This document shows positions 47,997 to 64,000 of a stretch of DNA of 64,000 bases, piece after piece (the first letter of the stretch is position 1; each line of letters begins with the position of its first letter). The stretch lies in IMG/VR virus record IMGVR_UViG_3300022752_000037, positions 31,264-95,263 of that record; one strand, 5' to 3'. Below the pieces are notes generated by a model. It was given only the letters and a program-made list of their open reading frames with translations. It did no database searches and had not been told where the DNA came from. Source of the DNA: a virus. The translations under genes were made by a program, and so were the position numbers.

Positions 47997-48425
47997 TTAT
48001 ACCGCTGTTAAAACAATATAGTCGTTTGAAGAATCGTTATCTAAGTACCAAGTATATCGATTACCACTAAAATCATAGGCTAATCTTCTTGTAAGTTTTG
48101 CTACTGAAACAAGAGTTCCGCTGTTAGAACTAGTGTATCCTTGAATTCTAATTTCTCCTTCAGCAGCAGGAGTGCCTGAAACTAAAGTACCAACTTTGGC
48201 ATTGTTTCCTATTGTGTTTAACGATTCAGTATCTGTAAATTCATCTGTACTTGTTTTTAAAACTACAAAAGTACTTTTTCCTCTTTGCTTGACTATTTGA
48301 TAATCGCTAGCCAAAGAACCAAAGTAACCTTGAACTCGAATACCTGCTTGGTTATCTGCACCTGTTCTTGTAAATGAACGTGTTACTCTAACACCGTTTA
48401 CATCTTTATGTAATGGACGTCCCAT
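47997..48425 (-). CDS. Hypothetical virion protein downstream of the major capsid gene
   Basis: MGRPL..., IVKQRG...F, V.KLTRR; strong AAGGAG SD and own late promoter. Confidence 0.7.
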   Translation of the reverse strand: MGRPLHKDVNGVRVTRSFTRTGADNQAGIRVQGYFGSLASDYQIVKQRGKSTFVVLKTSTDEFTDTESLNTIGNNAKVGTLVSGTPAAEGEIRIQGYTSSNSGTLVSVAKLTRRLAYDFSGNRYTWYLDNDSSNDYIVLTAV

Positions 48426-48491
48426 TTGTTTCTCCTTAAATTGACGTTCTAGGTCTACGCGGTGGGTTCCGCATAAATCATTTTGATAATG

Positions 48492-48499
48492 TATTTATA
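48492..48499 (-). promoter_or_regulatory. Late promoter TATAAATA
   Basis: Exact consensus just downstream of the capsid-gene terminator. Confidence 0.75.
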
Positions 48500-53380: not shown

Positions 53381-55103
53381 CAGTTACAGTTCCAGCAGGT
53401 GCCGATGGAGCCGCTTGCCCAGAAGGCGGCATAGCAGTTTCTCCAGGAGCCGCTCCTATTTCTGGAGGAGCATTTTCATCTGATAAATCAGTTAAGTCAC
53501 TTTCTATTCCAGCCTGACTAATCCCTGCTCCACGAAGTTCTCCACTCGGATCAGTAGAAACAATATTAGATTTACCGTTTTCTTCAGCCCATAGTTTCTG
53601 ATTTTCCGCCATTTCTTCATCACTAAGACCAAGAAATCTTTTTAGGGCAAATCTTTTACTAATGAACGGAACTTGTTGTAATGTATTAAATGTGTTAATT
53701 CTTTGTCCATCCATCTCGCTTTGTCTATATGCAGCAAAATTTAAAGGAGGATTTAACTGAAGCTCGAATAAACTAGTATCTATGTTAACTCCTTTATCAT
53801 AAAGAAACAATTTAAATTCTTGATCGAATACGTCTTCTAATAAACTTTGTAATCTTTCACAGTATTTGTTAAATCTTAATTCTTGAATATAAGCAGTTCC
53901 TACACGACCATCATTGTAACTGGCTTGACTATCATCGGCTCCTGTAGGCAAATAACTACTAGGAATTCTCAATCCTCTAAATAATTTATTAGTGAAATAT
54001 TTTAAATCATCTATCTCACCGAGATTGGTACCTCCTGGTAAAGTATCAACTTTTGACCCTCTACCTTCTGCTGTTTGTGGGAAAAAGTAATCTTCATTAA
54101 TACTTAATGGATTATAAGCACTATCAATAACATTTTGTCCTCCTCCTGTAGAACTAGGAATTCGTCTTTGATGTATTTCGTTTTTTACACGTTCGACAAA
54201 GCTCATAGCCAAATGACTTGGCATATTACCTACATCAATATAGAAAACACGGCGTTCAGGAGCACGTTGTACTCTATAAATTATAATAGCATCTTCTAAT
54301 AATTCTTTTTGTTTATAGACTTTAAATACCTGTTCAAGTAGACTGTTTCCAAAAGGATAATTATTATCTAATCCTTCACTTAGACTAAGATGTATAACGT
54401 GCTTAGATTCAATAGCTACTTCATTTTGATTGTTTTGAAAACGTGTTCCTGGACTAATTGGATAGGCACTAGCTTGTCCTCTAGCCGCAGCTCCTCCTGC
54501 TACATATGCTGTTCCTCGATTATTTGTATTGGTTGTATTTGGATTAATAGCAGTTACAACTAAGTCCATAAAATTTGGATTTAAATCTCTAATAACATAT
54601 TGTTCTGGCTTTTTGCCTTCACTCTCGTTAACAATAATTTTTGTAATTTTACCTGGGTCAACATGATACCATTGTTTACTTTCAGGATCTCTAATAAAAA
54701 ATCCATCGCCATATTTAAATATATTTCTTACGATTCTAAACACCCGTGTGTCAAATTTGTTCATTTTGCACCATTGTTGTAGATATTCACGTAATATTGT
54801 TATTTCGCTAGTAGTTGCCTGTGATTTAAAATGAAGTTGGAATGGTGTTTTATTAGTTTCATTTGGTTGGGTACAGAATTCAGCAAGTATGTCAAGGGCA
54901 GCATTAACTTCACTATCCATATCCATAGTGTCATATTGAAGATATCTATCAATACGATTAGGAGCACCTGTATAAACATCTGGAAGATAGCTACTATAAT
55001 TTGCCCTTGCAGGCCCAGGTCTACTGGCATTCATTCCTAATGGACTAAATGTTCCAGGTTGATTATCTACTAGTACAGGTGTGAAATATTTTTTCCAACT
55101 CAT
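53376..55103 (-). CDS. gp20: Portal vertex protein
   Basis: LLEDAIIIYRVQRAPERRVFYIDVGNMP, EDYFFP..GRGSKVDTLPGG.NLGEIDD, ELRF.KY. Confidence 0.97.
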   Translation of the reverse strand: MSWKKYFTPVLVDNQPGTFSPLGMNASRPGPARANYSSYLPDVYTGAPNRIDRYLQYDTMDMDSEVNAALDILAEFCTQPNETNKTPFQLHFKSQATTSEITILREYLQQWCKMNKFDTRVFRIVRNIFKYGDGFFIRDPESKQWYHVDPGKITKIIVNESEGKKPEQYVIRDLNPNFMDLVVTAINPNTTNTNNRGTAYVAGGAAARGQASAYPISPGTRFQNNQNEVAIESKHVIHLSLSEGLDNNYPFGNSLLEQVFKVYKQKELLEDAIIIYRVQRAPERRVFYIDVGNMPSHLAMSFVERVKNEIHQRRIPSSTGGGQNVIDSAYNPLSINEDYFFPQTAEGRGSKVDTLPGGTNLGEIDDLKYFTNKLFRGLRIPSSYLPTGADDSQASYNDGRVGTAYIQELRFNKYCERLQSLLEDVFDQEFKLFLYDKGVNIDTSLFELQLNPPLNFAAYRQSEMDGQRINTFNTLQQVPFISKRFALKRFLGLSDEEMAENQKLWAEENGKSNIVSTDPSGELRGAGISQAGIESDLTDLSDENAPPEIGAAPGETAMPPSGQAAPSAPAGTVTV

Positions 55104-58100
55104 TAATAAACGCCTACAAAATTATTTTTATTATTTGCTTTAACTGCTCTGAGCTGATCACCTAGTAACTTTTGATTTTGATCAATAAGATTCTGCATAT
55201 TCTTATTTAATGAACTTAGTTGTTTTACAACATCATTAAGAGTTGCATCTTTTGTTACAGTTGCAGTGGATTTAGATTCAGATGTTTTAGATTCATTATT
55301 AGATGTTTCACTATCAGACTTTTTTTCTGCCTGTCTTTTTAATCTAGCAGTTTCAGCACTGCTTTCGTTTTCTTCTTTTTTAGATATACTCTGAGTTTGA
55401 GATTTTAAATCTGCACCGTATTTTTTCATTCCTGGTAGATGTATAGTATTAAGATCTAATTCACCTTTCTCATTAAAAAAGGGATTAGTCGTCTTTAATT
55501 GAGAATCTAAGCTCTTTTTAGATTCTTCAGGAATATCAGTGTAATATCTTTCTCCAGTTTCTGGATTTATCTTGATACCTTGTGCTACACTACCATCTTC
55601 TGCTAATACATCCATGCCAGATGTATTTTTTTGAATATTTTTTTGTAGTTCTATTGCTTTGTCAAGACCTGCAAATTCATCAAACGGTAGTGCATTTTTT
55701 ATAGCTGATGAAATATAATCTGTATCTTCTTCTTCTTTTGGTAGATGTTTATCGATCATTGAACCTAAATTAGCTTGTATATCACCGACTACTTCATCGA
55801 GTCCACCACGCATATCATCAGCAAATAATAACATCTTTTCTTGTTCATTTATTGCTTTATCTACGCCTGCAAATTCATCAAACGGTAGTGCATTTTTTAT
55901 AGCTGATGAAATATAATCTGTATCTTCTTCTTTTGGTAGATGTTTATCGATCATTGAACCTAAATTAGCTTGTATATCACCGACTACTTCATCGAGTCCA
56001 CCACGCATATCATCAGCAAATAATAACATCTTTTCTTGTTCATTTATTGCTTTATCTACGCCTGCAAATTCATCAAACGGTAGTGCATTTTTTATAGCTG
56101 ATGAAATATAATCTGTATCTTCCTCTTCTGGTTGCTGATATTCATCAAGCATCGATCCTAAGTTGGCTTGAATGTCGTGTGCAACTTCATCGAGTCCACC
56201 ACGCATATCATCAGCAAATAATAACATCTTTTCTTGTTCATTTATTGCTTTATCTACGCCTGCAAATTCATCAAACGGTAGTGCATTTTTTATAGATGAT
56301 GAAATATAATCTGTATCACCGATCAGATCATCTATTTCTATCGGTTTAAATTCTATACCAGACATTACACTTTCGATATCTTCAGCTATGTTATTAGCTT
56401 CAAGCATCATGGCATCTTTAGCAGCAATTACACTATCTGTAGGAATAAGATCAGCCATTTCGCTCGCTATCTCATCTGCTGCCATAGTCATATCTGATAA
56501 TGTTGTAGTAGCAGCCGGAATAGATTTTGTAATGTTATTAATGTCTTCAGCAATTTCATTTGCTTCTAACATAAAATTATCTCTTGCCTGAACTAATACA
56601 TCTTCTACTTGTATTGGTGGAATATCAACAGCAGACATTTCTCCGGCGATGTCTTCAGCAATTTCGTTCGCTTCTAGCATCATAGCATCTTTAGCAGCAA
56701 TTACACTATCTGTAGGAATAAGATCTGTTATTTCACTAGCAATTTCATTTGCTTCAAGCATCATAGCATCTTTAGCTTGTGTTACGCTGTCTAATTGAGA
56801 AATATTAGTTTTTTCTGTAACGCCGACAATCTGTCCTTGAATGCCTTCTGATAACTCTAGCTGATCATTCAGAGCTTTTTTAGTAGCTTCAATTTCAGCT
56901 TTGTTATATTCTTCATTGGTCTTTAAAACATCTATCCTATGTTTTAAACTTTCTAATTGTAGTTGTTCTTCATAGGTTAGTTGTTGTTCTTGTGCCTTAG
57001 CTTCTAATTGCTCAATTTCACCTAATGTTAATTTTTCTCGCTCTAATCTTTTTTGTTCTTTCTCGTTCAAATAAACAAGATGCTCTTCATTAGATTCTAC
57101 AGAAGAATTCATTGCTTCTTTGTAAGACTGGCTAAATCTTCTAGCAGATCCAGACATTTCTTCGCTAGATTTTTGTATTTCTATCACAGGCAATGATTCA
57201 ATTAGGTCTTTGTTTATTTCTTCAAGCTTTAAATTAAAACCTGAAAGATCAACTTTGCCCATTGTAGACTGAATATCATTGTAAGTTTTTTCAAAACTAC
57301 TACCGAACTCGTCCATCATACTGCCAAATGGCAGTTTCATTTCTTCTCCGAATTCACTAGTTAATGCTTTGAAATCTGGTTTAGGAACGTCAGGAGCGTT
57401 GTCTACTGCTCTAACACTTGCTTGAGTAGGTGTAAGTTTAGCTGCTTCTGCTCTTTGTAATTCACTAATAACAGTTCCTGTAACTGATTTGATATCCAGA
57501 GGCTCTTGAGTTGTTTTTTCTATCTTATTATCTATTGCTCTAACACTTGCTTGAGTAGGTGTAAGTTTAGCTGCTTCTGCTCTTTGTAATTCACTAATAA
57601 CAGTTCCTGTAACTGATTTGATATCCAGAGGCTCTTGAGTTGTTTTTTCTATCTTATTATCTATTGCTCTAACACTTGCTTGAGTAGGTGTAGGTTTAGC
57701 TGCTTCAACTGGTTTAGCTGCTTCTTCTTTTTTCGCAACAGGAGAAGGAGGAGGCGGTGGAACATTAGATTTACCAAAGTCTTTAGGCCAATTAATAACT
57801 TCTACTTTGCTAGGTGTAGTGGGCTGCTTTAATTCTATAGTTTGTGGAGTCTTAGGTATTGGTGCTGATACTGTTGTTGAAATATCTTTACTAATAGAAT
57901 TTAAATCAATTCCTTTAGTAGAATGCATAGAAGATATTTGTTTTTTTAAATTATCAATAGCCTTAGCTGCTCCTTGATTTGTCATGCCTTTAGCAATATT
58001 TGTCATTTCATCTGGACGCACTACACCTTCTAAACCATGCAGCTCAACAAGAGTGCCTTTACCCCAATCTTCAAATAGATTGCCAGTCATCTGCACACTA

Positions 58101-59752
58101 CCGCCCTGTCTTTTAGGTACCTGTTGTCCAGCATTTTTCAATGATTCAATAAAAGCATCTGCTCCTTTTTTCAGTGCATTCGGTAATGATGTTCCAGCAC
58201 TATCGACTATTTTTTTAAAATTCTCCGCTATTCCAAAATTAGCAGCATCGTTAAACATTTTGCCTGCATTTTTTATCACAGTACCAGCTTCGGTAGCTCC
58301 TGTTACTAGAGCTGCACTTCCAATATTAACTGCCTTTAAAAGATCTCCGCCTAATCCGCTAACATTTTCAACTGCTTTTCCTTCTCTTCCCTGCTGTGCT
58401 GCATCTGCTATTGCTGGTCGTATGCCTTTTCCTGTACCGCCGAAGTTTTCACTCAGTCCTCTCAGTGTAGTATTAAATTCTTTAAAGGCTGGATCTAATT
58501 TCCTTAATGGTTCCAACAATCCTTCATTTATAGCCACAGCAGCATCTTTGGCCCGTGCCTCAAATAATATCATTGCTGATCCAAGTTCGTTAACTTTTTT
58601 ACCTTGATCGTCTCTTCCCTGCATTTCTTTTAGAGCACGATCACGAGCCATTTTATCAAGTTCTTCGGCACTCTTGCCTCTACCTTCTTCACTTAGTTGA
58701 AGTTGTCTTAAGGCATCATGATAGCCACGTGTGGCTGTTATATTATCTGCTATAGCCTTACTGGCCACATTTCCTGTATGGTTCAGCGTGCCTAATTGTA
58801 ACTTACTGATATCTCTACTATCTTCGTAGGCTGCTGCTCGACCTTTTGCAGCGGCTTCTTGAGCTTCTTTCTCTTGTCCTCTTTGAGTGGCAAGAGCCAT
58901 ATCTCTTGTAGCAGCAGCTTGTTGACTGTTGATTGCTGCTTGAGTGGCAGCTTCTTTGGTAACTATCTGTCCTGTGGCAAATATTTCTTTGAACATTTGC
59001 CCTTGCCCACGTAATTGAGCTTCGTTATATTGTTGAGCAAAAAGAGCACGAGCTTTTGCCTCTTCTTCTGGGCCTTTGGTAGCTCCTATTAATCTAAACT
59101 TTGACTCAACAGCAGCATCTTGAGAAGCTTTTTTCATCGCCTCTGCTTGTTCTTCTCTAGACTTTCCTGTTAAACGAGCCATTAAGTCCATTTCAGTAGC
59201 TAATTTAGTAGCTGCCTCGATTGACTGTTTTTGACCTTCTTGATCCAGTTTTTGACTATATCTTGTATAAGCTAGTTGTAAAGCAAGAACTTCATTAAGG
59301 TCTTTACTTGTATAGCCTAACAATCTTAGATTATCAGTAGCAGGTTCGTCCATAAAACGTTTGCTGAGAGTAGCAAATGCCTCTGCTCCCCTAGTAACAC
59401 TACCACCTAAACCTATAAAATTTTCTCTATTTTCTTTGATTAAATTAGCGAACTCACCCAATGTTAGTCTTGTATTCGCTGCTGCTACACTAAGACCTAT
59501 AAGGTCACCTCTAAACCCTGCGCCAGCTTTGCTTAAATCCATGAATGCATCTTTAGCATTCAACAAACTTTGTGCAGTTTCTTTTCCATATCCTGGTAAC
59601 TTTTCAAAGGCTGCTATTAAAGGGTTAGTGCTTTGAGCTGTTTTGTTCAATGCAGCTTCTAGCCCGCCATCGCTATATTTTGGAGCTGCGGTTTGACTTT
59701 GAGCCCATTTCTTAAAGAATCTTTCAAATTCTAAACTTTTTTCGTCAGCCAT
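55103..59752 (-). CDS. Tape-measure-like/baseplate hub protein with internal tandem repeats (1549 aa)
   Basis: Long Ala/Gln/Glu-rich helical N-terminal half; R..GG...G.GTLVELHG.EGV motif; divergent from the gp26-like gene. Confidence 0.65.
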   Translation of the reverse strand: MADEKSLEFERFFKKWAQSQTAAPKYSDGGLEAALNKTAQSTNPLIAAFEKLPGYGKETAQSLLNAKDAFMDLSKAGAGFRGDLIGLSVAAANTRLTLGEFANLIKENRENFIGLGGSVTRGAEAFATLSKRFMDEPATDNLRLLGYTSKDLNEVLALQLAYTRYSQKLDQEGQKQSIEAATKLATEMDLMARLTGKSREEQAEAMKKASQDAAVESKFRLIGATKGPEEEAKARALFAQQYNEAQLRGQGQMFKEIFATGQIVTKEAATQAAINSQQAAATRDMALATQRGQEKEAQEAAAKGRAAAYEDSRDISKLQLGTLNHTGNVASKAIADNITATRGYHDALRQLQLSEEGRGKSAEELDKMARDRALKEMQGRDDQGKKVNELGSAMILFEARAKDAAVAINEGLLEPLRKLDPAFKEFNTTLRGLSENFGGTGKGIRPAIADAAQQGREGKAVENVSGLGGDLLKAVNIGSAALVTGATEAGTVIKNAGKMFNDAANFGIAENFKKIVDSAGTSLPNALKKGADAFIESLKNAGQQVPKRQGGSVQMTGNLFEDWGKGTLVELHGLEGVVRPDEMTNIAKGMTNQGAAKAIDNLKKQISSMHSTKGIDLNSISKDISTTVSAPIPKTPQTIELKQPTTPSKVEVINWPKDFGKSNVPPPPPSPVAKKEEAAKPVEAAKPTPTQASVRAIDNKIEKTTQEPLDIKSVTGTVISELQRAEAAKLTPTQASVRAIDNKIEKTTQEPLDIKSVTGTVISELQRAEAAKLTPTQASVRAVDNAPDVPKPDFKALTSEFGEEMKLPFGSMMDEFGSSFEKTYNDIQSTMGKVDLSGFNLKLEEINKDLIESLPVIEIQKSSEEMSGSARRFSQSYKEAMNSSVESNEEHLVYLNEKEQKRLEREKLTLGEIEQLEAKAQEQQLTYEEQLQLESLKHRIDVLKTNEEYNKAEIEATKKALNDQLELSEGIQGQIVGVTEKTNISQLDSVTQAKDAMMLEANEIASEITDLIPTDSVIAAKDAMMLEANEIAEDIAGEMSAVDIPPIQVEDVLVQARDNFMLEANEIAEDINNITKSIPAATTTLSDMTMAADEIASEMADLIPTDSVIAAKDAMMLEANNIAEDIESVMSGIEFKPIEIDDLIGDTDYISSSIKNALPFDEFAGVDKAINEQEKMLLFADDMRGGLDEVAHDIQANLGSMLDEYQQPEEEDTDYISSAIKNALPFDEFAGVDKAINEQEKMLLFADDMRGGLDEVVGDIQANLGSMIDKHLPKEEDTDYISSAIKNALPFDEFAGVDKAINEQEKMLLFADDMRGGLDEVVGDIQANLGSMIDKHLPKEEEDTDYISSAIKNALPFDEFAGLDKAIELQKNIQKNTSGMDVLAEDGSVAQGIKINPETGERYYTDIPEESKKSLDSQLKTTNPFFNEKGELDLNTIHLPGMKKYGADLKSQTQSISKKEENESSAETARLKRQAEKKSDSETSNNESKTSESKSTATVTKDATLNDVVKQLSSLNKNMQNLIDQNQKLLGDQLRAVKANNKNNFVGVY
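55668..56318 (-). repeat. 195-198-bp near-identical coding tandem repeat (3 full copies plus a partial fourth)
   Basis: CCTGCAAATTCATCAAACGGTAGTGCATTTTTTATAG starts at 55668, 55866, 56061, 56259. Confidence 0.9.
57407..57692 (-). repeat. 129-bp coding tandem repeat (~2.2 copies, 43 aa)
   Basis: TGCTCTAACACTTGCTTGAGTAGGTGTA at 57407, 57536, 57665. Confidence 0.9.
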
Positions 59753-59812: not shown

Positions 59813-60637
59813 ATGAATCAAAGCAATCCACTTTTGAAATATTTCAGACAACCTAAGATTTATATTAATTTGCCAAGCCGTGGACTATATTATGAAAATA
59901 ACTCATTACAAGGCAATTACGAGCAGGTTCCTATTTTTGCTATGACAGGAATGGATGAAATTATTAGTAAAACTCCGGATGCATTGTTCAGTGGAGAAGC
60001 CACAGCCAAAGTAATTGAAAGTTGTTGTCCGGTGATTAAAAATGCCAAATTGATGCCCAGTATTGATTTAGATGCGTTATTAATTGCTATAAGAATTGCT
60101 ACATTTGGTCCTACTATGAACTTTACCCAAGTTTGTAAAAATTGTAGTACTGAAAATGATTATGAAGTAGAATTAAATGTTATCATAGACTATTTTCAAA
60201 ATTTAAAATTTGTTAATACTATTAATATTGACGAAAACCTTATTATTAAAGTCAGACCTCTATTGTATGAAGAAATGAATTATTTCGCGATAGAAAATTT
60301 TAAATTACAAAAAATGTTGTATCAAACAAGAGATCTTGAAGACGTAGAGAGACAAAAAACTATTGATAAAATTTATCTCGATCTTAGTGATTTACAATTG
60401 CAGCTTTTCTTAACTGTTATTAGTTCTATTCAAATTCCTGATATGGTTGTTTCAGAAAAAGACTTTATAGAAGAATATTTAAGAAACTGTGAACGTGACC
60501 AGTACAATTTAATTAAATCTAAATTAGAAGAAAACAAAGAAACATGGGCGATTCCTAAACAAAAAATTCAATGTTCTAATTGTAAAACTGAAGATGAAAT
60601 GCAAGTAGTATTGGATCAATCTAATTTTTTCGGTTAA
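59813..60637 (+). CDS. gp26: Baseplate hub/tail assembly protein (T4 gp26/gp51-like)
   Basis: NPL..YFRQPKIYI.LPS.G, MT..DE, D.DA.LIAIRIAT.G, two CxxC pairs, ends NFFG. Confidence 0.8.
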   Translation: MNQSNPLLKYFRQPKIYINLPSRGLYYENNSLQGNYEQVPIFAMTGMDEIISKTPDALFSGEATAKVIESCCPVIKNAKLMPSIDLDALLIAIRIATFGPTMNFTQVCKNCSTENDYEVELNVIIDYFQNLKFVNTINIDENLIIKVRPLLYEEMNYFAIENFKLQKMLYQTRDLEDVERQKTIDKIYLDLSDLQLQLFLTVISSIQIPDMVVSEKDFIEEYLRNCERDQYNLIKSKLEENKETWAIPKQKIQCSNCKTEDEMQVVLDQSNFFG

Positions 60638-60864
60638 GGCTTCTAAAACTTAACAATGAGGACATACTGAAATATACAGAAAGATTAGATTTAGAAGCCA
60701 AAGAAATAAAAGATGAAATTTTTAGAATAAGTTGGTATATGAGGGGTGGCGTAAGCAGCACTGATTTATTTTATCTATACAGTTATGAAGACAGAACAAT
60801 TCTAAATCAGATTATTAAAGATAATATTGATGCTACCAAGAAGTCAGGAATAAATCTTATCTAG
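60625..60864 (+). CDS. Unannotated -1-frame ORF, probable frameshift extension of the gp26-like gene
   Basis: 79 open codons (...LKLNNEDILKYTERLDLEAKEIKDEIFRISWYMRGG...YSYEDR.IL..IIKDNI..TKKSGINLI*) beginning exactly at the T TTT TTC slippery site; no ATG/GTG/TTG until 60739. Confidence 0.75.
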   Translation, partial: FFRLRLLKLNNEDILKYTERLDLEAKEIKDEIFRISWYMRGGVSSTDLFYLYSYEDRTILNQIIKDNIDATKKSGINLI

Positions 60865-62464
60865 CCAAATATGGTAGTTGCTGTCCAGGTTTTAAAAACT
60901 GTTGTAATGGATCCGGTTTACCTTTAGCTATTTCCGACCGCCTATAGGCAGTTAAATCCCAATTTGTACTAAGACTTGAATTACTAATTAGTTCTTTATT
61001 TGGACCTTTAGCAATTAAAACACTATTATCATCTGGTTTATCTGTTAATTCACCAGTTGTAGTGTTCAAATACCAAAGACCAGAACTATTTGCTACTGGC
61101 TCCGAAGTTGCTTGACGTATAGTTCCGTTAGGAGCCGCAGGAGCATTTGTAGGAGGATTAGCACTTTGTCCTGTAGATTGAGTTTTAGAAGCAGCTTGAG
61201 CACCGGTCTGCGAATAAGCATAATGTACAGGATCTTTTATAGGTTCGGGTCGACGCCATCCTTGAGAATTCATCCATTCTTCCTCTTCTCGACTTAACGG
61301 AGGACTTACATCAATGGCCCATAGATGAAACCATTCTTTATTCTTATGTTTGTCAGGATTAGTAGGTATATATATACCTTTTTCTCCTTTTTGCCATCTA
61401 TCATAAAGATCCTGTTGTTTATCTCTAGTACGTTCTGCACTAGTTATGTTTAACTCTTTTCCAAATTTCAATCTGTATTCTTTTTTAATTTTTTCAACAG
61501 CTCTTTTACTATTGGCCAAATCCTGATCACTACCAGGTACATCATACTTTTCTTGTTTTTGATATTGACCTAATACTCGACCTAATTCTGTATCTTCGAA
61601 ATCTCTTACATCCTTGAATATATTCAATCCTAGTTCTTCTAATGCGGCAGCAGACCCTGCTATAACTGCATTAACAAATTGTTCTAACCATACTCTACCT
61701 TTATCAGAATTTAAAAAAGTAATCCAAGCAGCTTTTAAAGTCGCATTAGCTAAAACTGCCGAGGCTAAATTTAATGTAATTTTTCCACCAGTAGCCATAC
61801 CTGCGGCCAGTGCTAGCATAGCAGTAGCACTTTTAGCAATTAGGTTACCACTGATAATTTGAGCTACAACCGCAGTAGCGAATATTGCTAACTCTTTATT
61901 TCTACGAGGATCATCTGGGGGTAATGCATCAACTTTTTCATTATAAACTTCCCAGGCATACCAAATTCCCCATATTCCGACAAGTTTATTAACAAGATAA
62001 CCTAGAGCAAGCCAACGCGGAGAATTCCAGAATTTAGTCATTTTACTTTGAAATGCACTTGTAGCAGGTCTATTCATTATGTCTTGATAACTTTGAGATA
62101 TTTGACTACTAGATGCAGCAGTTTTGAAATAGGCAGCAACTTTAGAATCACTTCTTTTCTTTATTTCATCTAATACAACTTTTAGGTCATTGCCTTGAAG
62201 ATTAGGATCTAAATCTTTATGTAAAAATTTATAAAAATCAGGATCTTTAACCCTGCCAGTTTCTCTTGATTTAATTACTGCTTCTGCATATTTGTCAGAC
62301 TTAGCTTGTATGAAAGGCTCCATTCTCTTCAGTAATTCTTTTTGAGATTTAGATGCTTGATAAGCTTGTTGTGCTTTATTTAAACCTTTCTTTGCTGCAT
62401 TAGTAGCTGATTTTGCAGTAGATTTAAATACACCTGCTTCAAATACAATTTCGTGAGCTTTCAT
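60857..62464 (-). CDS. Membrane-segment protein with an M15 (VanY/endolysin-like) Zn peptidase domain
   Basis: ITSAERT...Q..LY, H..AIDV, GW, DPVHY; hydrophobic segments around aa 150-250; N-term MKAHEIVFE. Confidence 0.7.
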   Translation of the reverse strand: MKAHEIVFEAGVFKSTAKSATNAAKKGLNKAQQAYQASKSQKELLKRMEPFIQAKSDKYAEAVIKSRETGRVKDPDFYKFLHKDLDPNLQGNDLKVVLDEIKKRSDSKVAAYFKTAASSSQISQSYQDIMNRPATSAFQSKMTKFWNSPRWLALGYLVNKLVGIWGIWYAWEVYNEKVDALPPDDPRRNKELAIFATAVVAQIISGNLIAKSATAMLALAAGMATGGKITLNLASAVLANATLKAAWITFLNSDKGRVWLEQFVNAVIAGSAAALEELGLNIFKDVRDFEDTELGRVLGQYQKQEKYDVPGSDQDLANSKRAVEKIKKEYRLKFGKELNITSAERTRDKQQDLYDRWQKGEKGIYIPTNPDKHKNKEWFHLWAIDVSPPLSREEEEWMNSQGWRRPEPIKDPVHYAYSQTGAQAASKTQSTGQSANPPTNAPAAPNGTIRQATSEPVANSSGLWYLNTTTGELTDKPDDNSVLIAKGPNKELISNSSLSTNWDLTAYRRSEIAKGKPDPLQQFLKPGQQLPYLAR

Positions 62465-62471
62465 GATAAGA

Positions 62472-62477
62472 TATTTA
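62472..62477 (-). promoter_or_regulatory. Late promoter TAAATA
   Basis: 7 nt upstream of ATG 62464. Confidence 0.65.
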
Positions 62478-62479
62478 TT

Positions 62480-62922
62480 AGAAGTTGAACGTAGTTCAAC
62501 TGTTCTTCGCTCACGCTCGAACAGTTCTTCTGCGAAGCAGTTTTAATATTATCCAGATACAATGGTCACACTTTGCCCGTTAAGGGCAAAAATGACTTTA
62601 CATTATCCGAGTACGCAAGTCACATAGCGTTAGAGCTACGAGGCTGTAAAAAATTTTTACTACCTCACGCAGGCGGTCATCCGGTACCTGCTCACTCCGT
62701 CTTTACAATGACGGCAGTCTATACACATACGCTAACACATGCATAGCCGTTAGGGAGTTACCCTTCTTTTGGCCTTTCGTCCTTTTCAAACAACCAAATC
62801 GCAGGTCTTAAGCGATCTTCATCTCTGAGAGGTAGTGGTTGAGTTCTTGTTACGGCGACAAGATTCCATCCCTGTGACACGAGTCCAGGTCTAGGGCGCA
62901 CGAAATTAGGCCTGCGCTAGCC
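62480..62922 (-). ncRNA. Candidate large structured non-coding RNA (alternatively an origin or other cis element)
   Basis: Longest ORF-free gap in the window, GC-richer than flanks, at least 10 stems and two loop-distal complementarities. Confidence 0.6.
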
Positions 62923-63360
62923 TTAACCGTTTAATTGTTTGCCTTTGATATGTGAGCCATGAACACGAACAGATATCTGTCCGTTATAGTATTCGTCTGA
63001 TTCTAATACACGCCTTGAGAATTGCTCTCTTGCCTCAATGTAACTACATTCTGCCTTGGTTTTACAAAAATAAAGTATGTCTCTACGAAAGTTATCTAGG
63101 CCTAATTTTATAACATCTGCCTGTAATTCGTCATTTGATCCGTAATAGTCTCGCCAATCACTTTCTATTTTGCCTCTGATGCGTTTCTTTTTCTTGTTGC
63201 CATTCTTTAATTTCACTGTGCGAACTGTGGTCTTTGCGAATTTAGCCAGTTTTTTGCCTATGTATTTTCTATTATTGGTAAGATTGGTTATAATATAAAC
63301 AAAGCCTATATATTCTTCTTCAATTGATTCTACGATCGCATCGTTATAATACCAAGACAT
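62923..63360 (-). CDS. Small GIY-YIG endonuclease (T4 EndoII/DenA-like)
   Basis: GFVYIITN...RKYIGKK, YYGS, E and YYN motifs; Lys/Arg-rich insertion. Confidence 0.85.
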   Translation of the reverse strand: MSWYYNDAIVESIEEEYIGFVYIITNLTNNRKYIGKKLAKFAKTTVRTVKLKNGNKKKKRIRGKIESDWRDYYGSNDELQADVIKLGLDNFRRDILYFCKTKAECSYIEAREQFSRRVLESDEYYNGQISVRVHGSHIKGKQLNG

Positions 63361-63363
63361 CTA

Positions 63364-63618
63364 CTATGTATCAAGATTTCGCCTTCGAATCTTGTCTCTT
63401 GGCACACCACCTTTGCGATATTTTTCACTATATCTTCTGTGTCTTTCTTTGTAGGTATCCAACAATGCTTGTCTCATTTCTTGCGAAAGTTTAATCATCT
63501 GCATTAAGTTTGCTCTTGTTCGCTTGGCACTAGCCATAGTTCGTTCCACAGCAAACTGTTGATAATTTGTAAAATAGATACGAAACTCTCGCATCAGTCG
63601 ATCATGAAGCTCATCCAT
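63364..63618 (-). CDS. Small basic helical protein (Hc1/histone-like family resemblance)
   Basis: F....ASAKRTRANL..M.KL...MR pattern; GGAG SD supports start 63618. Confidence 0.55.
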   Translation of the reverse strand: MDELHDRLMREFRIYFTNYQQFAVERTMASAKRTRANLMQMIKLSQEMRQALLDTYKERHRRYSEKYRKGGVPRDKIRRRNLDT

Positions 63619-64000
63619 TCTCGAACTCCAAGTCATTAGCATAGCTAGTATAGCCATTTTCTTTTATAACTTTTAGCACATTATTGACACGGCCTACTAG
63701 TTCATCCTTATGACTGATTAGGTAAATGTTTTTGTTTCGTTCTCTTGCCATTTTTTTCAGTAGTGCTAGAGCACTTTCTACACCAGCAGCATCTAATCCG
63801 TTGTCTATAAGTTCATCGATAAACAGTAAATTGATATTTTGATAAAGACTTTCCCACACATCACGGAAACTCCAACTAAGTCCTAGGATTAATCTGTTGC
63901 GTTCTCCTCTGCTTAGATTGTCAAAGTCAAGCTCTTGTCCTAACTGAGTTATCTCTACGTTAAGATCATTTAAGAAACTGACTTGATGAGGTAGTCCCAT
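63611..64000 (-). CDS. gp46: Recombination endonuclease ATPase subunit (SbcC/Rad50), 3' end
   Basis: ABC signature LSRGE, Walker B LFIDE, H-loop ISH. Confidence 0.92.
   Translation of the reverse strand: MGLPHQVSFLNDLNVEITQLGQELDFDNLSRGERNRLILGLSWSFRDVWESLYQNINLLFIDELIDNGLDAAGVESALALLKKMARERNKNIYLISHKDELVGRVNNVLKVIKENGYTSYANDLEFENG

What the first reader, a model, noticed from the sequence alone, without database searches (positions are those of the whole stretch)
62480..62922. ~450-nt ornate, pseudoknotted non-coding element directly downstream of a small GIY-YIG nuclease
Seen: the only long intergenic gap in the window, packed with stems. These include CTAG-GCGCA/TGCGC-CTAG (62891-62920), CCTG-GAC/GTC-CAGG, TCTTGT/ACAAGA, CAACCA/TGGTTG enclosing ATCGC/GCGAT, ACGGC...GCCGT (62711-62750), GCAGG-CGG/CCG-CCTGC (62669-62691), GAGG-GTAAAA/TTTTAC-CCTC (62640-62666), TTTGCCC/GGGCAAA (62572-62590) and two overlapping terminal palindromes (62483-62527). 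Two loops have distal partners: on the minus strand GGCC..TTTCG (62901-12) pairs with CGAAAGGCC (62771-79), and TAGCGT (in 62729-36) pairs with ACGCTA (62625-30). The structure starts 2 nt after the stop of a 145-aa GIY-YIG protein with a very basic insertion. I do not recognise tRNA, tmRNA, RNase P or group I/II intron cores. Inference: a large structured phage RNA, possibly forming an RNP with the nuclease, by analogy to nuclease-associated RNAs such as HEARO/omega RNAs.
Basis: partly seen in the sequence, partly recalled or inferred. Interest (0 to 1): 0.85.

Follow-up and report, generated by a model that had tools for sequence, protein, structure and literature searches.

The report
Full-length Polynucleobacter-1 twin-box phage RNA
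The gene-free 440 bases behind a small nuclease gene of this uncultured freshwater T4-like phage encode a real, doubly knotted non-coding RNA; its first third is an orphan RNA motif catalogued in 2010, the rest is uncatalogued and shows one 7-letter word twice, and its job is still unknown.

Summary
Window 62480-62922, minus strand, is one conserved structured RNA of about 440 nt. Its 5' 135 nt (62788-62922) match Rfam RF01718, Polynucleobacter-1, at 104.8 bits against a cut-off of 37. The remaining ~305 nt match nothing in Rfam, yet they are conserved and covary in every relative.

On 55 non-redundant relatives, 105 proposed pairs give 673 compensatory cells against 191 in shuffles (0 of 500 shuffles reach it). 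Two pseudoknots carry compensatory changes.

The 3' domain holds two modules whose 7-nt box (GGAUAAU here) is identical twice in 55 of 55 RNAs, with 8 different words. No partner was found.

The RNA ends at its own hairpin, directly before a late-promoter-like word.

The nuclease-RNP reading is not supported. The GIY-YIG family is common without the RNA, genes can sit between the two, the gene is inverted in a marine relative, and no nuclease residue tracks the boxes. Still, 95 of 96 RNAs found by RNA motif alone have the gene upstream.

Function is unknown. My best guess is a trans-acting RNA that presents two identical sites to one reader.

This scan has reported the same RNA family on other DNA several times.

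The parts
62480..62922 (-). Whole structured RNA, about 440 nt (5' end at or near 62922, last hairpin ends at 62485)
   Evidence: A profile of the whole length is found in nearly all relatives, starting 2-15 nt after the GIY stop.
62788..62922 (-). 5' domain = Rfam RF01718 Polynucleobacter-1 (hairpins P1, P2, P3 and a multi-stem P4/P4a/P4b)
   Evidence: cmscan gives 104.8 bits (cut-off 37), E 1e-21, model positions 1-141 of 141. P1, P4 and P4b are 99.6-99.7% paired with double changes.
62717..62748 (-). Hairpin P6, whose loop GUUAGCGU forms pseudoknot A
   Evidence: 10 of 10 pairs have changes on both sides; 90.9% of cells paired (helix 13).
62729..62734 (-). Pseudoknot A, 5' strand (UAGCGU in the P6 loop); pairs with 62625-62630
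   Evidence: 6 of 6 pairs have double changes and 99.7% of cells are paired, e.g. CG 43 / UA 12 and GC 42 / AU 12 (helix 14).
62625..62630 (-). Pseudoknot A, 3' strand (ACGCUA)
   Evidence: As above (helix 14).
62708..62712 (-). Pseudoknot B, 5' strand (GUCAU); pairs with 62676-62680
   Evidence: CG 28 / UA 27, and GC 37 / AU 16; 97.1% of cells paired (helix 15).
62676..62680 (-). Pseudoknot B, 3' strand (AUGAC), inside the near-invariant loop GGUACCGGAYRACCGCC
   Evidence: As above. The loop letters are invariant in 55 sequences.
62632..62698 (-). Helices P8 (62694-62698 with 62632-62636) and P9 (62687-62691 with 62669-62673)
   Evidence: P8: 5 of 5 pairs have double changes (GC 27 / CG 22; AU 37 / GC 8 / UA 6 / CG 4). 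P9: 99.1% of cells paired (helices 16, 17).
62638..62668 (-). Window-specific expansion hairpin (GAGG..UAAAAA / UUUUUA..CCUC) between P9 and the 3' strand of P8
   Evidence: Present as an insertion in only a few of 55 relatives (columns 339-392).
62602..62608 (-). Twin box 1 (GGAUAAU), preceded by A-CUC; lies in a ~12-nt loop closed by a stem whose register varies
   Evidence: Box 1 equals box 2 in 55 of 55 RNAs, 8 different words. The closing stem is shown.
62548..62554 (-). Twin box 2 (GGAUAAU), preceded by A-UCU
   Evidence: At least 21 word changes on a tree built without these columns.
62619..62623 (-). Head of module 1 (GUGAC)
   Evidence: The first letter R is the same in both heads in 55 of 55 RNAs (G,G 51; A,A 4).
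62565..62569 (-). Head of module 2 (GUGAC); always 11 nt before box 2
   Evidence: spacing is constant in 55 of 55.
62572..62590 (-). Hairpin P11 (UUUGCCC / GGGCAAA) between the two modules
   Evidence: 86% of cells paired; UA 34 / CG 6 / AU 3 at the third pair (helix 21).
62500..62524 (-). Hairpin P13 with an inner GNRA-capped GC stem
   Evidence: CG 33 / UA 14 and further double changes (helices 24, 25).
62485..62499 (-). Last hairpin P14 (UUGAAC UAC GUUCAA): probable 3' end or terminator, without a U tract
   Evidence: 99.6% of cells paired, 4 pairs with double changes (helix 26). The terminator scan does not call it.
62472..62479 (-). AATAAATA, a T4-type late-promoter-like word for the next gene; not part of the RNA
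   Evidence: NATAAATA lies 0-13 nt after P14 in 34 of 55 relatives (exact TATAAATA in 14). It is mostly missing where the next gene converges.
62923..63360 (-). 145-aa GIY-YIG nuclease gene (SegE-like, phrog_447): neighbour of the RNA
   Evidence: PF19835 E 2.3e-32; phrog_447. The model's best structural match is the I-TevI catalytic domain, probability 0.95.

Best explanation
Shown: this is the full-length form of the Polynucleobacter-1 RNA. It is an independently folding non-coding RNA of about 440 nt on the minus strand, with a 5' domain that is the catalogued motif and an uncatalogued core with two pseudoknots. Its 3' domain carries two copies of a module (RUGAC, spacer, A-YYY, 7-nt box RGAURAW). 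It belongs to a deep group of freshwater T4-like phages.

Inferred:
- The RNA is made as the tail of the early/middle transcript that runs sbcC(gp46) -> small basic ORF -> GIY-YIG. No promoter-like word lies between the stop codon and the RNA.
- It ends at its own last hairpin, just before the late promoter of the following late (baseplate/tail-region) genes. It is therefore neither that gene's leader nor a protein-coding stretch.
- It acts in trans as a folded scaffold that presents two identical single-stranded boxes to one and the same reader. Which reader is unknown.
- The GIY-YIG nuclease is most likely a syntenic neighbour, not the RNA's partner.

My odds: real RNA of this family 0.93; 'one reader, two boxes' as the working principle about 0.4; any functional tie to the nuclease beyond co-transcription about 0.2.
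For: - Family: RF01718 at 104.8 bits over the whole model.
- Extension: the 3' ~320 nt are conserved in all 25 loci found by a 5'-domain word. They are also conserved in about 60 of the 80 loci found through the nuclease protein.
- Structure: 86.5% of cells paired against 74.7% in shuffles. 673 compensatory cells against 191. Covariation score 0.354 against 0.149 in shuffles and at most 0.079 when partners are slid. 0 of 500 shuffles reach the observed values.
- Strand: the family hit is strand-specific. Near-invariant G-U pairs (GU 54, GU 42, UG 23) would be A-C on the other strand. Over all pairs, G-U 442 against A-C 214.
- Twin boxes: identical in 55 of 55 RNAs and 67 of 67 loci, 8 words, at least 21 changes on the tree. 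No Watson-Crick partner column exists inside the RNA.
- 3' boundary: a covarying last hairpin is followed by NATAAATA in 34 of 55. In several relatives the next gene converges, so the RNA is not a 5' leader.
- Not a nuclease partner.
- Weak hint of expression: contigs from one metatranscriptome library, from relatives 85-95% alike, cover the nuclease gene and run on into the RNA's first hairpin (records 15 and 16).
Against: - No direct evidence of a discrete transcript, its ends or its abundance. The RNA-library contigs are shallow and could be DNA carry-over.
- No reader was found. There is no conserved complement within 4 kb. The complement's 3-fold excess in the window lies inside ORFs in codon context. 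No residue of the nuclease or of the upstream small protein tracks the box.
- The count of box changes may be inflated if the 60-nt twin-box block recombines between phages.
- The adjacency RNA -> nuclease gene (95 of 96) is tighter than simple neighbourhood would predict. A functional tie is therefore not excluded.
- The fold of the region between the two boxes is only partly resolved.
Confidence: 0.6

Rival explanations
1. Nuclease-RNA particle. The RNA binds the minimal GIY-YIG nuclease, which lacks a DNA-binding domain, and guides, tethers, activates or inhibits it. The twin boxes would then be protein-binding or target-pairing sites.
For: 95 of 96 RNAs found by RNA motif alone have the gene upstream on the same strand, 88 of them directly (also 25 of 25). 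The protein is only a catalytic domain plus a basic beta-hairpin and an invariant, poorly modelled C-terminal tail.
Against: The family is in 380 cultured phage records at other loci, and there is no RF01718 in four complete genomes. Downstream gaps are 87 and 148 nt in S-SRM01 and Melnitz. Seven ~70%-identical genes have no RNA in the 0.6-2.5 kb of downstream DNA held. ORFs sit between gene and RNA in 9 loci. The gene is inverted in marine L186. The basic hairpin is also present in RNA-less homologues. The highest mutual information between box position 1 and any nuclease residue is 0.25 bit. There is no hypervariable guide.
Confidence: 0.08
2. Cis-acting 3' end element. The RNA is an elaborate 3' UTR that terminates and stabilises the early/middle sbcC-GIY transcript and insulates it from the late promoter behind it.
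For: It starts at the stop codon with no promoter word in between. It ends in a conserved hairpin directly before NATAAATA. It keeps its orientation relative to sbcC even where the nuclease gene is inverted.
Against: About 440 nt with two pseudoknots, many invariant single-stranded letters and twin boxes is far more than a terminator or stabiliser needs. The last hairpin has no U tract. Weinberg et al. 2010 list it as a likely cis-regulatory candidate of uncertain type, and its Rfam entry types it 'Gene; sRNA', but no function has been tested.
Confidence: 0.1
3. RNA-only assembly. Like GOLLD, ROOL and OLE, the RNA forms a symmetric homo-oligomer, and conserved loops make contacts between copies.
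For: Its size, ornate fold and phage origin resemble GOLLD and ROOL, which form homo-oligomers in cryo-EM (PMC12286853, found). Many invariant unpaired letters are unexplained.
Against: Watson-Crick contacts between copies would give complementary or palindromic sites, not two identical words. Box 2 plus its pre-box is self-complementary only in some alleles. No sequence or model similarity to GOLLD or ROOL.
Confidence: 0.1
4. Replication primer or origin RNA, or a self-processing ribozyme that frees itself from the mRNA.
For: It lies at the border of the replication/recombination gene block. ColE1 RNA II is a precedent for a long folded primer (my own knowledge, not tested here). The 5' end coincides with the stop codon, so processing is plausible.
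Against: There is no match to any ribozyme or intron model in Rfam at E up to 10. No DNA-level origin features were examined.
Confidence: 0.07

Closest known systems
Polynucleobacter-1 RNA motif (Rfam RF01718; Weinberg et al. 2010, Genome Biol 11:R31, PMC2864571)
   Same: The 5' 135 nt match the whole 141-position model at 104.8 bits. The habitat is the same (fresh water). It sits 'downstream of genes of family GOS11034', as the authors noted, which is probably this GIY-YIG family.
   Different: The catalogued motif is only the first third. The authors found no example in a purified phage and described no 3' extension. Here the RNA is clearly phage-borne and continues for ~305 nt with two covarying pseudoknots and the twin modules.
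GOLLD (RF01998), ROOL (RF03087) and OLE: large ornate bacterial and phage RNAs
   Same: It is several hundred nucleotides long, has many helices and pseudoknots, is often phage- or prophage-borne, and has no known function.
   Different: No sequence or model similarity. It is smaller. Identical twin boxes are not a described feature of those RNAs. Its oligomeric state is unknown.
HEARO/omega RNAs of IscB and TnpB (OMEGA systems)
   Same: A structured RNA encoded directly beside a small nuclease gene.
   Different: Those nucleases are RuvC/HNH enzymes inside IS200/IS605 elements, and their RNA carries a variable guide at one end. Here the nuclease is GIY-YIG, there is no transposon end and no guide-like hypervariable end, and the nuclease family is common without the RNA.
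Group I introns carrying GIY-YIG homing endonuclease genes (T4 td / I-TevI)
   Same: A T4-like phage, a GIY-YIG ORF and an adjacent folded RNA.
   Different: No intron model matches. The previous ORF ends 3 nt before the GIY start, so there is no 5' intron half. The downstream genes differ or converge among relatives, so there is no second exon.

Membership tests
Rfam RF01718 Polynucleobacter-1 | Covariance-model score at or above the curated gathering score (37 bits) | tested here: met
   104.8 bits, E 1.2e-21, at 62788-62922 on the minus strand.
Rfam RF01718 Polynucleobacter-1 | All model helices present (full model coverage) | tested here: met
   Model positions 1-141 of 141 are aligned and no pair is flagged non-canonical. 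In 55 relatives P1, P4 and P4b are 99.6-99.7% paired with double changes.
Rfam RF01718 Polynucleobacter-1 | Lies downstream of a gene of family GOS11034 (authors' note) | not testable with these tools
The GOS11034 sequences are not at hand.
Rfam RF01718 Polynucleobacter-1 | Fresh-water or estuary origin | tested here: met
   The runs holding half or more of the stretch's sampled words are freshwater, lake-water and one subsurface metagenome; further runs at 0.42-0.47 are freshwater, aquatic, riverine and fish-gut.
RNA-guided nuclease systems (OMEGA: HEARO/omega RNA with IscB/TnpB) | RuvC-type nuclease of the IscB/TnpB/Cas lineage | tested here: not met
   The protein is GIY-YIG (PF19835 E 2.3e-32; I-TevI-like fold).
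RNA-guided nuclease systems (OMEGA: HEARO/omega RNA with IscB/TnpB) | A variable guide segment at one end of an otherwise conserved RNA | tested here: not met
   Both ends are conserved hairpins. The only fast-changing letters are 3-4 positions of an internal 7-nt word with 8 alleles.
RNA-guided nuclease systems (OMEGA: HEARO/omega RNA with IscB/TnpB) | Nuclease and RNA depend on each other (co-occurrence both ways) | tested here: not met
   RNA -> gene holds in 95 of 96 loci. Gene -> RNA fails: 380 cultured phage records carry the gene, and 0 of 4 complete genomes checked has the RNA. Seven close homologues have no RNA in the downstream DNA held.
Group I intron with homing endonuclease ORF | Intron core (P3-P9) recognisable, with flanking exons of one gene | tested here: not met
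   No intron family in Rfam at E up to 10. The upstream ORF abuts the GIY start, and the downstream genes are unrelated or convergent.
tRNA / tmRNA | Cloverleaf or tRNA-like domain with a tag reading frame | tested here: not met
   ARAGORN finds no tRNA or tmRNA in the window.
Intrinsic terminator only | G+C-rich hairpin followed by a U tract, and nothing more | tested here: not met
   The scan calls no terminator at the RNA's 3' end. 440 nt of covarying structure precede the last hairpin.
GOLLD/ROOL-type RNA-only assemblies | Homo-oligomer formation | not testable with these tools
   This needs native gels or cryo-EM. There is no model similarity.

The most novel reading that the evidence does not exclude
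The twin boxes are a two-fold address. The RNA reads one 7-nt word twice, either on a nucleic acid carrying the complement or through a coevolving dimeric reader, and the 8 box alleles are different specificities. That would make this a new kind of programmable phage RNA. If the two identical strands instead pair with each other in parallel by like-with-like base pairs, it would be a natural RNA motif of a kind not yet described.
Probability: 0.1. Interest if true: 0.9.

Novelty: new variant of a known kind. Interest (0 to 1): 0.55.

Why it matters
Large, intricately folded RNAs without a known function are rare. Each one solved so far (RNase P, group I/II introns, tmRNA, OLE, HEARO/omega RNA) opened new biology.

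This one is common: more than 560 related loci in one viral collection. It is phage-borne and three times larger than its catalogue entry. It also carries an unusual signature, two sites kept letter-for-letter identical through many changes. That signature gives a sharp experimental handle: change one box, or change both.

A corrected full-length model would also improve annotation of freshwater phage genomes and of the Rfam family.

Tried and rejected
1. Rfam for the 3' two-thirds: only chance-level hits at E above 4.
2. tRNA or tmRNA: none.
3. A cis or nearby partner for the boxes: there is no Watson-Crick column inside the RNA and no conserved complement within 4 kb in 55 loci. ATTATCC occurs 11 times against 3.8 expected in the window, but all copies lie inside long ORFs, ten of eleven on the coding strand in codon context such as TAT-TAT-CC.
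4. Coevolution of box letters with the nuclease or with the small upstream protein: nothing beyond clade markers.
5. Mini-ORF reading (RUG ... RGA-URA, where every box contains UAA or UGA): module 2 is in frame only because its spacing is fixed. Module 1 is in frame in 29 of 55. Rejected.
6. CsrA-type GGA sites: 32 of 55 boxes read AGA. Rejected.
7. The basic insertion as an RNA-specific feature: it is also present in RNA-less homologues.
8. Bacterial 'hosts': the 18 genome hits are all metagenome bins of unrelated phyla carrying phage-type neighbours such as sbcC and the baseplate hub. They are most likely mis-binned phage contigs.
9. Expression: one metatranscriptome holds shallow contigs of relatives. 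This gives no ends, no strand and no level.
10. Cultured phage with the RNA: none by blastn, and none of four complete genomes by the family model.
11. Solved-structure sequence search for the nuclease: nothing.
12. RNAalifold's GCC/GGC long-range pairs are invariant and one of them is G-G.

Full report
**What is there**

The window is the end of a 95-kb IMG/VR viral contig, estimated 27% complete. It comes from a T4-like myovirus. It carries a baseplate-hub gene at 59813-60637 and the C-terminal part of SbcC/gp46 at 63611-64000.

On the minus strand the order is:
- sbcC;
- a 97-aa basic ORF (63364-63657);
- a 145-aa GIY-YIG protein (62923-63360; PF19835 E 2.3e-32, phrog_447);
- a 458-nt stretch without ORFs of 60 aa or more (62465-62922);
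- a 535-aa ORF with no family hit.

**Known part**

Rfam places 62788-62922 (minus strand) in RF01718, Polynucleobacter-1. The score is 104.8 bits against a gathering score of 37, and the whole 141-position model is covered.

The only paper in the library that names the motif is Weinberg et al. 2010. Its supplement says the following:
- the 3' half is not always detected;
- most examples lie downstream of genes of family GOS11034;
- no example was seen in a purified phage.

Nothing in Rfam matches the remaining 62465-62787. ARAGORN finds no tRNA or tmRNA.

**The RNA is three times larger than its catalogue entry**

- A 15-nt word from the 5' domain fetched 25 true relatives from viral contigs. 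In all of them the 3' ~320 nt are conserved as well, with nhmmer E-values down to 1e-32.
- A search with the nuclease protein found at least 569 related places. Eighty were kept, and in about 60 of them the whole RNA starts 2-15 nt after the stop codon. Most of the rest were too short downstream to tell.
- A third search used a word from the 3' domain only. It gave 117 loci, of which 96 could be judged. In 88 the GIY-YIG gene lies directly upstream, in 7 it lies 70-1400 nt upstream, and in 1 it is absent.

**Structure**

My model has 105 pairs. The counts are:

| Measure | Observed | Control |
|---|---|---|
| Cells paired | 86.5% | 74.7% in shuffles |
| Compensatory cells | 673 | 191 in shuffles |
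| Covariation score | 0.354 | 0.149 in shuffles; at most 0.079 with partners slid |

None of 500 shuffles reaches the observed values.

Two pseudoknots are well supported:
- Pseudoknot A joins 62729-62734 with 62625-62630. It is 99.7% paired, and 6 of 6 pairs show double changes.
- Pseudoknot B joins 62708-62712 with 62676-62680 and is new. It shows CG 28 / UA 27 and GC 37 / AU 16.

Its TTTCG/CGAAA half is paired in only 41-64% of cells. ACGGC/GCCGT and the CTAG extension are not conserved. The GAGG..CCTC hairpin is an expansion specific to this window and a few relatives.

Low pairing percentages in some of my helices (P3, P5, P10, P12, P13) come from MAFFT register errors in regions rich in insertions and deletions.

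The strand is the minus strand. The family match is strand-specific. Near-invariant G-U pairs (GU 54, GU 42, UG 23) would be A-C mismatches on the other strand.

**Twin modules**

The 3' domain holds two copies of the following module:
- a head RUGAC;
- a spacer;
- a pre-box, always A-CUC in copy 1 and A-UCU in copy 2;
- a 7-nt box RGAURAW.

In the window both boxes read GGAUAAU (62608-62602 and 62554-62548).

- In 55 of 55 non-redundant RNAs, and 67 of 67 loci, the two boxes are identical although 8 different words occur. The first letter of the two heads is also always the same.
- On a tree built without these columns, box position 1 changes at least 15 times and the whole word at least 21 times. 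Exchange of the 60-nt block by recombination could inflate this count.
- Box 1 sits in a loop of about 12 nt closed by a covarying stem whose register varies.
- A second pair of positions covaries by identity, columns 300 and 469 of A2. It suggests two similar strands sharing one partner.

I looked for the boxes' partner and found none:
- No Watson-Crick column inside the RNA.
- No conserved complement within 4 kb.
- The complement's excess in the window is codon context inside ORFs.
- No residue of the nuclease or of the small upstream protein follows box position 1.

**Boundaries and transcription (inferred)**

No promoter-like word lies between the nuclease stop and the RNA. The sigma-70 scan is at chance level.

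The last hairpin (62499-62485) covaries. In 34 of 55 relatives it is followed within 0-13 nt by NATAAATA, the late-promoter word of T4-like phages. The window has AATAAATA at 62479-62472. Most relatives without this word are ones in which the next gene converges.

So the RNA is most simply the tail of the early/middle sbcC-GIY transcript, and it ends before the late transcription unit begins. It is not the leader of the next gene.

One metatranscriptome holds shallow contigs of relatives that run from the nuclease gene into the RNA's first hairpin. This is only a weak hint, because contigs cannot show strand, ends or level, and DNA may be present in the library.

**Is the nuclease the partner?**

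For:
- The adjacency is tight in one direction.
- The protein is a bare catalytic domain with a basic beta-hairpin and an invariant, poorly modelled C-terminal tail.

Against:
- The family is a common gene of cyanomyoviruses and other T4-like phages. It occurs in 380 cultured records at other loci, for example after nrdA-nrdB in S-SCSM1. From my own knowledge, that is the place of denA in T4.
- Downstream gaps there are short or absent, and there is no RF01718 in four complete genomes.
- Seven ~70%-identical genes are followed at once by another ORF, with no RNA in the 0.6-2.5 kb of downstream DNA held.
- ORFs lie between gene and RNA in 9 loci.
- In marine L186 the gene is inverted, while the RNA keeps its orientation relative to sbcC.
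- The basic hairpin is not specific to RNA-bearing loci.
- There is no coevolution signal.

I therefore read the nuclease as a long-standing neighbour, with about 0.2 odds of some functional tie.

The 'bacterial' hits of the nuclease are metagenome bins of unrelated phyla with phage neighbours. They are most likely mis-binned phage DNA.

**Verdict**

The RNA is real, belongs to a known orphan family, and is much larger and more intricate than catalogued. The nuclease-RNP analogy is not supported.

The function is unknown. The mechanism I commit to, at about 0.4, is a trans-acting scaffold that offers two identical sites to one reader.

Earlier reports of this scan on other genomes reached the same description, 'twin-box' Polynucleobacter-1 RNA. 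I had seen the identity covariation before reading them. I re-tested their main claims here.

What I found here, and did not see in the short summaries returned to me, is:
- the late-promoter boundary;
- the RNA-first association count (95 of 96);
- the negative coevolution tests;
- the inverted-gene case;
- the tree count of box changes.

Noticed in passing
window 48423-48493 (-): A second Rfam match: RF02980 freshwater-2 RNA, 50.8 bits, just over its cut-off of 49.9.
   Followed up: no
window 63364-63657 (-): The 97-aa basic helical ORF between sbcC and the GIY-YIG gene belongs to a fast-evolving family found at this spot in many relatives (45 of 76 unique upstream ORFs). The Atlas gives a weak lead to histone-H1-like Hc1, PF07432, on 16% of the nearest cluster. 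No link to the box alleles was found.
   Followed up: partly
window 62472-62479 (-), and the same place in L055, L017, L012, L160, L070, L136 and others: A T4-type late-promoter word (NATAAATA) lies 0-13 nt after the RNA's last hairpin in 34 of 55 relatives. Most relatives without it are ones in which the next gene converges.
   Followed up: yes
L193 (Synechococcus phage S-SCSM1, NC_070962.1 98328-98756): A homologue of the GIY-YIG gene lies directly after nrdA-nrdB, the position that denA (endonuclease II, also GIY-YIG) holds in T4 by my own knowledge. The family may be a DenA counterpart rather than a homing endonuclease.
   Followed up: no
L186 2526-3435: In a marine relative, binned as a Rickettsiales MAG, the GIY-YIG gene is inverted between sbcC and the RNA, and only model positions 158-416 of the RNA are recognisable. 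So the 5' Polynucleobacter-1 domain is divergent or absent there.
   Followed up: partly
L133 1440-1930 and L152 2935-3420: Two loci, 82% alike to each other, have a ~450-nt ORF-poor gap behind the nuclease gene. Only the last hairpins match the RNA profile and no twin boxes are found. This may be a replaced or strongly divergent RNA.
   Followed up: partly
window 55103-59752 (-) and 60857-62464 (-): The 1549-aa ORF has several long internal tandem repeats visible in its translation. It lies beside the baseplate-hub gene, so it may be like a tape measure or gp29. The 535-aa ORF directly after the RNA has no Pfam or PHROG family and is not conserved among relatives.
   Followed up: no
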